Below, one piece after another: positions 43,501-46,500 of a DNA stretch of 64,000 bases. The stretch's first letter is position 1. The number at the start of each line of letters is the position of its first letter. The position numbers are program-made. The DNA lies in the NCBI RefSeq assembly GCF_055900595.2, contig NZ_CM148325.1. One strand, given 5' to 3'.

Positions 43501-46500
43501 CTTTCTTCCTACCGATATCCTCGGTGTCCTGGCGATAAACAGCCTGATGGCGTTTGGCCTTGGTGCACTCTGGGGCGTACTGATCCTCACCTGCCTGCTG
43601 CCGGTAAACCAGCTGCTGACCGCGCTACCGGTGGATGTATTAGGTAGTCTGGGGGAATTAAGCTCGCCAGTGGTTTCAGCTTTTGCACTGTTCCCGTTGG
43701 TGGCGATTTTCTACCAGTTTGGCTGGAAGCAAAGTCTGATCGCCGCCGTGGTAGTGTTGATGACCCGTGTGGTGGTAGTGCGCTATTTCCCGCATCTCAA
43801 TCCGGAATCCATCGAAATCTTTATTGGCATGGTGATGCTGCTGGGGATCGCGATAACTCACGACCTGCGTCATCGTGATGAAAATGACATCGATGCCAGC
43901 GGTATGTCGGTGTTTGAAGAACGTACGTCGAGGATTATCAAAAATTTACCCTATATCGCCATCGTAGGGGCGCTGATTGCCGCCGTTGCCAGCATGAAGA
44001 TTTTTGCTGGTAGTGAAGTGTCGATCTTCACCCTGGAGAAAGCATATTCCGCAGGTGTAACGCCGGAACAATCACAAACGCTGATCAACCAGGCGGCGCT
44101 GGCGGAATTTATGCGCGGGCTGGGTTTTGTGCCGTTGATTGCCACCACCGCGTTAGCAACAGGTGTGTATGCAGTTGCGGGCTTTACCTTTGTTTATGCG
44201 GTGGGCTATCTCTCGCCGAATCCGATGATTGCAGCGGTATTAGGCGCAGTGGTTATTTCGGCGGAAGTCCTGTTACTTCGTTCGATCGGCAAATGGCTGG
44301 GACGCTATCCATCGGTACGTAACGCGTCGGATAACATCCGTAACGCCATGAATATGCTGATGGAAGTGGCGTTGCTGGTCGGTTCGATTTTCGCAGCAAT
44401 TAAAATGGCGGGCTATACCGGATTCTCCATCGCGGTTGCCATTTACTTCCTCAACGAATCCCTGGGCCGTCCGGTACAGAAAATGGCGGCACCGGTCGTA
44501 GCAGTAATGATCACTGGCATCCTGCTGAATGTTCTTTACTGGCTTGGTCTGTTCGTTCCGGCTTAAAGAAGGCACCTATGAAGACGTTTCCTTTGCAAAG
44601 CCTGACGCTTATTGAAGCGCAGCAAAAGCAGTTTGCGTTGGTGGATACGATTTGCCGCCATTTTCCCGGCGCGGAGTTTCTTACCCGCGGGGATTCAGGC
44701 TTAACGCCGGGCCTGAATCAACCGCGCATTACTCAGCGTGTGGAGCAGGTGCTGGCTGATGCGTTTCATGCGCCAGCGGCGGCGCTGGTGCAGGGCGCGG
44801 GTACTGGAGCAATTCGCGTCGGGCTGGCAGCTTTGCTCAAATCGGGGCAGCGTCTTCTGGTGCATGACGCGCCTGTTTACCCGACGACTCAGGTCATTAT
44901 TGAACAGATGGGGCTGACGCTTATTACTGCTGATTTTAATGACCTGTCGGCACTGAAGCAGGTCGTCGACGAGCAACAACCAGATGCCGCGCTGGTGCAG
45001 CATACGCGCCAGCAGCCGCAGGACAGCTATGTACTGGCAGATGTGCTGGCAACGCTGCGCGCAGCAGGTGTTCCAGCCTTAACCGATGACAACTATGCGG
45101 TGATGAAGGTGGCGCGCATTGGCTGTGAATGCGGGGCGAATGTCTCGACATTTTCCTGCTTCAAGCTGTTTGGGCCAGAGGGTGTTGGCGCGGTGGTAGG
45201 CGATGCTGATGTTATTAACCGGATCCGCGCCACGCTCTATTCCGGAGGCAGTCAGATCCAGGGCGCACAGGCGCTGGAAGTATTGCGTGGTCTGGTGTTT
45301 GCGCCAGTGATGCACGCGGTGCAGGCGGGGGTATCTGAACGGTTGCTGGCCTTGCTCAACGGTGGCGCGGTGGCGGAAGTTAAAAGCGCCGTTATTGCTA
45401 ATGCGCAGTCGAAGGTGTTGATTGTCGAGTTTCATCAGCCGATTGCCGCCAGAGTGCTGGAAGAGGCGCAAAAGCGCGGTGCCTTGCCTTACCCGGTGGG
45501 TGCAGAGTCGAAATATGAAATCCCGCCGCTCTTTTATCGACTTTCCGGAACGTTTCGTCAGGCGAATCCGCAATTAGAACATTGTGCAATTCGCATTAAC
45601 CCGAATCGCAGCGGTGATGAGACGGTATTGCGGATTTTGCGCGAGAGTATTGCCAGCGTTTAATTCTGGGAACGATGTTTTCGCAGAGTATGGAGAAAAA
45701 TACGCCCTCGGAAAATTCAGAGGGCGTTAGCTCATTAAACCGGCGTTAGCCGATTTCTGTCAGAGACTTACTGTGCAGTAGGACCGCAACCGCCAATGAT
45801 TTTAGAAATAGAAATTGCCGGGTGCAGCAGGTAGTCGTAAGAGCAGTTCTTATCACGGTTTTCAATATGACCAGTACATGCAGTTAACGTAGCCAGTACT
45901 GCACCTACCAGTGCAACTTTAATAAATTTGTTCATTTACATTCCCTATGTATTATATATTGATTAATATTCATTGATTATATGAATATAAGCGGACTGCT
46001 CATAAAGAACGATACAGGAATATTTAATTGGCGTCAGTGAGTGAATGACTTAATTTTGTAAGTCGCTGTAACGGTGAATATAATCCATTAGCAAATGATA
46101 TTTATTAAGAGGGTATGCTTTATTTGCTGAATATATAAAAAGAGTGATAAAGAGGGCCAGAATTATCTGGCCCGGGTAAAATTAATGGTTAGAGAACCAG
46201 TTCAATTTATCGCGCAGGCCAACGACCCGACCAATAATAATTAATGAGGGACTGTTCATTTGCTGCGCCAGCTCGCCCAGTTGCGTGAGCGTACCGTCAA
46301 TCACGCGTTGCGTTACCGCCGTACCGTTTTCGACAATCGCCACCGGCATTTCGCAAGGCATTCCGTGTTCAATCAGTTTTTGCTGAATGGTCGCGGCCTG
46401 ATTAAGCCCCATATAGAACACCAGCGTCTGTTTTTCGGCTGCCAGGTTTTCCCAGTCCAGCTCGCCACCGGTTTTTAAGTGTCCGGTAATTAAGCGTACG

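What the first reader, a model, noticed from the sequence alone, without database searches (positions are those of the whole stretch)
45664..46181. frlABCDR (fructoselysine) operon absent between yhfS and yhfL
In K-12 as I recall it the order is cysG - yhfL - frlA - frlB - frlC - frlD - frlR - yhfS. Here yhfS (ends 45663) is followed after 104 bp by yhfL (45768-45935, minus) and then cysG, so the five frl genes are missing. The junction holds only a terminator-like hairpin (45703-45726). Together with the envZ-pck insertion this marks the strain as non-K-12 and shows accessory-content flux in this otherwise core region.
Basis: partly seen in the sequence, partly recalled or inferred. Interest (0 to 1): 0.4.

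Follow-up and report, generated by a model that had tools for sequence, protein, structure and literature searches.

The report
Ordinary frl-less yhfS–yhfL junction
This E. coli strain lacks the five-gene fructoselysine (frl) operon that K-12 carries between yhfL and yhfS, but about 39% of complete E. coli genomes lack it too, the gap looks like the original uninterrupted site, and the absence is already described in the literature.

Summary
yhfS (44578-45663, +) is followed after 104 bp by yhfL (45768-45935, -) and cysG (46182-47555, -). K-12 has about 5.2 kb holding frlABCDR at this point, and no frl gene lies anywhere in the window.

The absence is ordinary. 2105 of 5426 complete E. coli genomes have the same contiguous yhfS-yhfL junction. 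3300 carry frlBCD, always as one chromosomal copy. Published work calls loss of fructoselysine catabolism a hallmark of phylogroup B2 and variable in B1.

The 104-bp spacer is not a deletion scar. It is homologous, base for base, to the yhfS-yhfL spacer of E. albertii, E. whittamii and other Escherichia lineages. Citrobacter, Enterobacter and Buttiauxella also have yhfS-yhfL-cysG adjacent without frl. The empty site is therefore the ancestral arrangement, and frl is an insertion carried by part of Escherichia.

The hairpin at 45703-45726 is yhfL's own intrinsic terminator. It is also present in K-12.

The window comes from a rare lineage, 96.3% identical to K-12.

Verdict: real, already known, low interest.

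The parts
44578..45663 (+). yhfS (PLP-dependent aminotransferase-like), last gene of the yhfZYXW-php-yhfUTS cluster
   Evidence: ORF of 361 aa. Pfam YhfS-like_C at E 1.4e-44. 95% aa identity to K-12 YhfS.
45664..45767 (.). 104-bp convergent yhfS-yhfL spacer: the frl-less 'empty site'
   Evidence: Homologous along its length to the spacers of frl-less E. coli, Escherichia sp. MOD1-EC7003, E. whittamii and E. albertii. No Rfam match.
45670..45697 (.). About 28 nt of the spacer with no alignable counterpart in K-12; K-12 has the 5.2-kb frlABCDR segment at this point
   Evidence: Gap between the two blastn blocks against K-12. The same segment is present in all empty-site alleles examined.
45692..45726 (-). 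Intrinsic terminator of yhfL: stem CGCCCUC/GAGGGCG (45703-45726) followed on the minus strand by UAUUUUUCUCC
   Evidence: -16.4 kcal/mol, z = -2.9. Present downstream of yhfL in K-12 (L001 5657-5682). In 11 Escherichia sequences 94.5% of cells are paired, with compensatory changes at two inner pairs.
45768..45935 (-). yhfL (DUF4223 small lipoprotein)
   Evidence: 55-aa ORF. Pfam DUF4223 at E 7e-37. 100% aa identity to K-12.
45936..46181 (-). AT-rich (31% GC) cysG-yhfL intergenic region, the same 246-bp length as in K-12, holding the cysG terminator at 46154-46173
   Evidence: GC content. Terminator scan hit GGGCCAGATAATTCTGGCCC plus T-rich tail. -16.9 kcal/mol, z = -5.5. K-12 spacing.
46182..47555 (-). 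cysG (siroheme synthase)
   Evidence: 457-aa ORF. 99% aa identity to K-12 CysG.

Best explanation
The window carries the frl-less ('empty-site') allele of the cysG-yhfL | yhfS interval. The two convergent genes yhfS and yhfL are separated by the ancestral 104-bp spacer. Its only functional element is yhfL's Rho-independent terminator. The K-12-type allele differs by a segment of about 5.2 kb (frlA transporter, frlB deglycase, frlC epimerase, frlD kinase, frlR repressor, plus REP-like and GC-rich palindromic repeats on the frlR-yhfS side). That segment sits in place of about 30 nt of the spacer. The allele here is therefore not a deletion scar but the state that predates the frl insertion in Escherichia. 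Shown: the gene order, the breakpoints, the homology of the spacer to outgroups, and the population frequency. Inferred: the strain cannot catabolise fructoselysine or psicoselysine through the Frl pathway (established function of frlABCD, Wiame et al. 2002 and 2004, as cited in PMC5996543), and the hairpin terminates yhfL transcription.
For: Gene order and breakpoints. No Frl homologue in the window. yhfS-yhfL(-cysG) are adjacent without frl in E. albertii, E. whittamii, Escherichia sp. MOD1-EC7003, 'E. coli' SCPM-O-B-8794, several Citrobacter, Enterobacter sp. ENT03, Buttiauxella and Superficieibacter. The spacer, including the 28 nt absent from K-12, aligns with the spacers of these Escherichia lineages and of four frl-less E. 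coli. 2105 of 5426 complete genomes have the contiguous junction. 3297 have the frl segment. frlBCD is detectable in 3300, one copy each and never on plasmids. FrlB's nearest non-E. coli relatives are patchy: Serratia 84%, Sodalis 83%, Paenibacillus 73%, then Clostridia-type at 55-64%. The five-gene cassette sits in other contexts there, which fits a horizontally acquired cassette. No terminal direct or inverted repeats flank the K-12 segment. Literature: PMC5996543; bioRxiv 10.1101/2025.09.14.675865; PMC3505186.
Against: The frl+ allele is itself old. 'E. coli' E69 is 92.5% identical to K-12 across the locus and has frl at the same site with the same junction. Its frl genes are as diverged (91-96%) as the flanks. 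Presence and absence therefore both run deep in the genus, and the state of the E. coli ancestor is not settled. frl GC content (53.8%) is not anomalous. Only a 64-kb window is available, so an frl copy elsewhere in this strain's genome is excluded only indirectly (one copy per frl+ genome, always at this locus).
Confidence: 0.88

Rival explanations
1. An ancestor of this lineage carried frl. It later regained the empty allele by homologous recombination with an frl-less donor (allelic replacement), so the absence is secondary even though the sequence is of the ancestral type.
For: Presence and absence segregate even within K-12-like backgrounds. Strain ECL27829 is about 99% identical to K-12 over 40 kb and is frl-less. 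Its flanks are identical to K-12 right up to both junction edges. This shows that the alleles are exchanged or re-assorted by recombination. The yhfS-Z block of the window is more diverged from K-12 (94.0%) than its flanks (96.2-97.5%).
Against: No recombination tract specific to the junction is visible in the window. The window's yhfS and yhfL-cysG blocks are roughly equidistant from all other alleles examined, as expected for a deep lineage that inherited the locus vertically. The outgroups are empty, so no frl+ ancestor is needed.
Confidence: 0.1
2. The frl operon was deleted from a K-12-like arrangement in this strain or its recent ancestors, by illegitimate or repeat-mediated deletion.
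For: The frlR-yhfS spacer of K-12 contains repeat elements that also match elsewhere in E. coli genomes, and such elements could mediate rearrangements.
Against: A deletion cannot create the 28-30 nt of spacer that is absent from K-12 yet homologous to the spacer of E. albertii, E. whittamii and others. The window has no REP, repeat or frl remnants. The same junction occurs in 2105 genomes.
Confidence: 0.02
3. Assembly artefact: frl was collapsed or dropped from the window.
For: None.
Against: An independent complete genome (NZ_CP098223.1) matches the junction at 99.9% over 1 kb. Thousands of others have the same architecture.
Confidence: 0.01

Closest known systems
frl-negative E. coli, described as a hallmark of phylogroup B2/ExPEC (Fang et al. 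2018, PMC5996543; bioRxiv 10.1101/2025.09.14.675865) and variable in B1 (Didelot et al. 2012, PMC3505186)
   Same: The same contiguous yhfS-yhfL-cysG architecture and a homologous spacer, as in sampled frl-less genomes M21170, MS20655, AHB19 and ECL27829. frlABCDR is absent.
   Different: The window's allele is only 91-94% identical to those junctions. It belongs to a rare lineage: only 16 of 5426 genomes reach 99% or more over an 18-kb core segment. The phylogroup of the window could not be assigned from these 64 kb.
K-12 frlABCDR locus (fructoselysine/psicoselysine catabolism; Wiame et al. 2002 and 2004, as cited in PMC5996543 and PMC3505186)
   Same: The same flanking genes, the same yhfL terminator and the same 246-bp cysG-yhfL spacer.
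   Different: The window lacks the 5.2-kb segment (NC_000913.3, about 3,499,690-3,504,928) and has about 28 nt of ancestral spacer in its place.
Genomic-island or mobile-element insertion sites (tRNA- or integrase-associated islands, IS-flanked cassettes)
   Same: A discrete multi-gene block is present or absent at one fixed chromosomal point.
   Different: No integrase, tRNA, IS or terminal repeats lie at either edge of the K-12 segment or in the window. Composition is not anomalous. Exchange appears to be by homologous recombination of the flanks (inference).

Membership tests
frl-less (empty-site) allele of the cysG-yhfL/yhfS interval | yhfS and yhfL are directly adjacent and convergent, with no frl gene between them | tested here: met
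   A 104-bp spacer with no ORF resembling FrlA-R.
frl-less (empty-site) allele of the cysG-yhfL/yhfS interval | The spacer is homologous to that of other frl-less Escherichia | tested here: met
   Alignments with 4 frl-less E. coli and 4 other Escherichia lineages.
frl-less (empty-site) allele of the cysG-yhfL/yhfS interval | No frl operon elsewhere in the genome | not testable with these tools
   Only 64 kb is available. Indirect support: frlBCD is single-copy and chromosomal in the 3300 genomes that have it, and the 3297 frl-bearing and 2105 contiguous-junction genomes sum to 5402 of 5426.
Phylogroup B2 E. coli | Clermont markers (chuA, yjaA, TspE4.C2, arpA) or core-genome placement | not testable with these tools
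   The markers lie outside the window. The core 18 kb is 97.4-98.1% identical to essentially all other E. coli genomes, and only 16 reach 99% or more. This argues against membership of any abundant phylogroup.
Rho-independent (intrinsic) terminator | A GC-rich stem-loop followed immediately by a U-tract on the transcribed strand | tested here: met
   Minus strand: CGCCCUCUGAAUUUUCCGAGGGCG followed by UAUUUUUCUCC, -16.4 kcal/mol. The plus strand has no U-tract after the stem. The simple scanner missed it because of the internal mismatch and longer apical region.
Rho-independent (intrinsic) terminator | The structure is conserved across relatives | tested here: met
   94.5% of cells paired in 11 sequences, against 35-64% for slid controls. 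Two pairs carry double-sided changes. Six of the 10 pairs never vary, so the covariation support is modest.
Deletion scar or mobile-element excision site | Remnant of the element, target-site duplication, IS or integrase nearby | tested here: not met
   No frl remnants. No terminal repeats around the K-12 segment. The neighbours are core genes.

The most novel reading that the evidence does not exclude
The frl presence/absence difference may be an old polymorphism that spans Escherichia lineages, not a phylogroup-level loss. Both alleles occur in deeply diverged lineages: frl+ in K-12 and in E69 (92.5% identity), and empty in E. albertii, E. whittamii, this rare lineage, B2-type strains and a K-12-like sheep isolate. 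Recombination has eroded linkage right up to the cassette edges. This would point to long-term, diet-dependent balancing selection on Amadori-product use.
Probability: 0.3. Interest if true: 0.35.

Novelty: already known. Interest (0 to 1): 0.1.

Why it matters
It matters little beyond strain description. It predicts that this strain cannot use fructoselysine or psicoselysine (Amadori products of heated food) as a nutrient. That trait separates large groups of gut E. coli and is under selection in mouse-gut evolution experiments (bioRxiv 10.64898/2026.05.27.728231). One modest refinement comes out of this check. The frl-less state is the ancestral, never-interrupted site, not a loss. The hairpin at the junction is an ordinary gene terminator.

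Tried and rejected
1. Small RNA or riboswitch in the spacer or the cysG-yhfL intergenic region. An Rfam scan at E<=1 of 44500-47000 returned nothing.
2. Mobile-element signature at the edges of the K-12 frl segment. There are no terminal direct or inverted repeats. A possible 4-nt 'CAAG' duplication seen by eye in K-12 is not conserved in E69 and was dropped.
3. Compositional evidence for foreign origin of frl. GC is 53.8% and GC3 about 0.65, against 0.57-0.61 in neighbours. This is not distinctive.
4. The consensus terminator scan did not report the 45703-45726 hairpin. Folding and comparative analysis were used instead.
5. Phylogroup assignment of the window was not possible from this region. 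A phylogroup-labelled survey could not be made because the genome collection gives no phylogroup labels, so I relied on counts and on the literature.
6. Homology between K-12's junction-proximal bases (CAAGAAGGACATA) and the empty-site spacer (CGAAAAGAATGCA). The match is 7 of 13, with all six mismatches being transitions. This is suggestive of a fuzzy left boundary but too short to count as evidence.

Full report
**Observation**

The ORF list and sequence show the following layout:
- yhfS at 44578-45663 (+)
- a 104-bp spacer at 45664-45767
- yhfL at 45768-45935 (-)
- a 246-bp AT-rich spacer
- cysG at 46182-47555 (-), followed by nirC, nirD and nirB

Pfam confirms YhfL (DUF4223, E 7e-37) and YhfS (YhfS-like_C, E 1.4e-44).

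blastn against K-12 gives two blocks that abut in the window. Window 38112-45669 matches K-12 3512486-3504929 at 94.0%. Window 45698-64000 matches K-12 3499685-3481409 at 96.2%. K-12 therefore has about 5.2 kb where the window has about 28 nt (45670-45697). tblastn with the K-12 Frl proteins finds nothing in the 64 kb.

**The hairpin**

The stem CGCCCTC/GAGGGCG at 45703-45726 folds at -16.4 kcal/mol on the minus strand and is followed there by UAUUUUUCUCC. On the plus strand no U-tract follows it. The same hairpin sits downstream of yhfL in K-12, 41-66 nt after the stop codon, before the frl segment begins.

In an alignment of 11 Escherichia sequences, both frl+ and frl-, 94.5% of cells are paired, against 35-64% when the partner is slid. 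Double-sided changes occur at two inner pairs. The hairpin is therefore yhfL's intrinsic terminator, not a feature created by the junction.

A second, stronger terminator lies at 46154-46173 (minus strand) and ends cysG. Rfam finds nothing in 44500-47000.

**How common the arrangement is**

Counts among 5426 complete E. coli genomes:
- 2105 have a single match spanning the junction.
- 3297 hold at least 80% of the K-12 frl segment.
- A sensitive blastn with frlBCD finds it in 3300 genomes, one copy each (one genome has a second match) and none on plasmids.

About 39% of complete genomes are therefore frl-less, and they do not carry frl elsewhere. About twenty genomes show other states, for example an IS1 next to yhfL (H29) or yhfL missing (H30).

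The literature already records this:
- Fang et al. 2018 report the frl operon missing from B2 strains (0-3% predicted growth, against 69-91% in other groups; PMC5996543).
- A 2025 preprint calls it a hallmark of B2 (10.1101/2025.09.14.675865).
- Didelot et al. 2012 list frl among clusters present in some B1 strains and absent in others (PMC3505186).

**Polarity**

I scanned one genome per GTDB species for YhfS and mapped K-12 proteins on the flanks. yhfS-yhfL(-cysG-nirC) are adjacent without frl in:
- E. albertii
- E. whittamii
- Escherichia sp. MOD1-EC7003
- 'E. coli' SCPM-O-B-8794
- several Citrobacter
- Enterobacter sp. ENT03
- Buttiauxella (Superficieibacter also has yhfS-yhfL adjacent, but about 7 kb separates yhfL from cysG)

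Only 'E. coli' E69 had frl.

The Escherichia spacers align with the window's spacer along its whole length, including the 28 nt that K-12 lacks. A deletion from a K-12-like ancestor could not recreate that sequence. The window therefore holds the ancestral empty site, and frl is an insertion that replaced about 30 nt.

Other evidence fits a horizontally acquired cassette:
- The K-12 segment has no terminal repeats, and no integrase, tRNA or IS.
- Its frlR-yhfS spacer holds a REP-like palindrome and a GC-rich palindromic repeat. I recall the latter as boxC-like, from memory. Both also match elsewhere in E. coli genomes.
- FrlB's nearest relatives outside E. coli are patchy: Serratia 84%, Sodalis 83%, Paenibacillus 73%, then Clostridia-type proteins at 55-64%.
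- The intact five-gene cassette lies in a different context in Serratia.
- In Sodalis sp. C49 it lies between tsgA-side genes and trpS, which is the same neighbourhood as in E. coli.

**Complications**

The frl+ allele is also old. E69 is 92.5% identical to K-12 over 14.4 kb. Its frl genes (91-96%) are as diverged as its flanks, and the junction sequence is the same.

Conversely, ECL27829 is about 99% identical to K-12 over 40 kb yet is frl-less, with an ancestral-type spacer. It shows one difference from K-12 in the last 664 nt of yhfS. It shows none from 75 nt inside the spacer through yhfL and into the cysG-yhfL spacer.

Presence and absence are thus re-assorted by recombination, with breakpoints close to the cassette edges. 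I cannot say whether the window's lineage inherited the empty site vertically (favoured) or regained it by allelic replacement.

**The strain**

The window is 96.3% identical to K-12 over 61 kb. An 18-kb core segment is at least 99% identical in only 16 genomes, and 97.4-98.1% in all others. The best match is NZ_CP098223.1 (dog, South Korea). It is 99.9-100% identical, but it differs by three bases in the 3' end of yhfS and has a pseudogenised yhfW. The source is therefore a rare, deep-branching E. coli lineage. frl absence adds little to that diagnosis.

**Verdict**

The feature is real and correctly read, but it is ordinary and already described. The only refinements are that the empty site is ancestral and not a loss, and that the hairpin is yhfL's terminator.

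Noticed in passing
window 13555-16211: A 2.7-kb segment absent from K-12 between envZ and pck. It holds three same-strand ORFs (13683-14969, 15007-15537, 15516-16160). The first has a SUKH-1/SMI1_KNR4 domain (E 1e-6), a fold common in immunity proteins of toxin systems. The other two have no Pfam match.
   Followed up: partly
window 38112-45669 (yhfZ-yhfS cluster): This block is more diverged from K-12 (94.0%) than either flank (97.5% and 96.2%). yhfS alleles of different E. coli strains differ by 8-9%, nearly as much as from E. whittamii. The cluster seems to carry unusually deep allelic lineages or introgressed alleles.
   Followed up: partly
window 20014-38096 (whole window by extension): The source lineage is rare. 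Only 16 of 5426 complete E. coli genomes are at least 99% identical over this 18-kb core segment, and all others are 97.4-98.1%. This fits a deep-branching or cryptic lineage labelled E. coli.
   Followed up: partly
L085/L089 (NZ_OZ462646.1, strain ECL27829) versus K-12: A K-12-like genome (about 99% over 40 kb) that is frl-less. Its flanks are identical to K-12 up to both edges of the heterology. This implies cassette gain or loss with crossovers essentially at the cassette boundaries.
   Followed up: partly
L090 (Sodalis sp. C49, CP163303.1) 6603-11559: A complete frlABCDR-like cassette lies between tsgA-side genes and trpS. This is the same chromosomal neighbourhood as in E. coli, although nir-cysG-yhfL and yhfS-Z are absent there. 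In a Serratia contig the cassette is in an unrelated context.
   Followed up: no
window 3884-4099: About 216 nt that megablast does not align to K-12. The adjoining matches map at about K-12 3543928-3543939, inside the 3' end of rpnA. This is probably a diverged or replaced rpnA C-terminal segment.
   Followed up: no
window 38097-38111: K-12 has about 146 bp (3512487-3512631) between yhfZ and trpS, where the window has 15 nt. This is probably a small repeat element in K-12.
   Followed up: no
window 40785-42011 versus L002 3486-4712: yhfW is an intact 408-aa ORF in the window, but it is annotated as a pseudogene with an internal stop in the otherwise near-identical genome NZ_CP098223.1.
   Followed up: no
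hits H29 and H30: Rare third states of the locus. One has an IS1A copy next to yhfL (strain GPEC1446). In another genome only the cysG part of the query matches, so yhfL appears absent (strain 102651).
   Followed up: no
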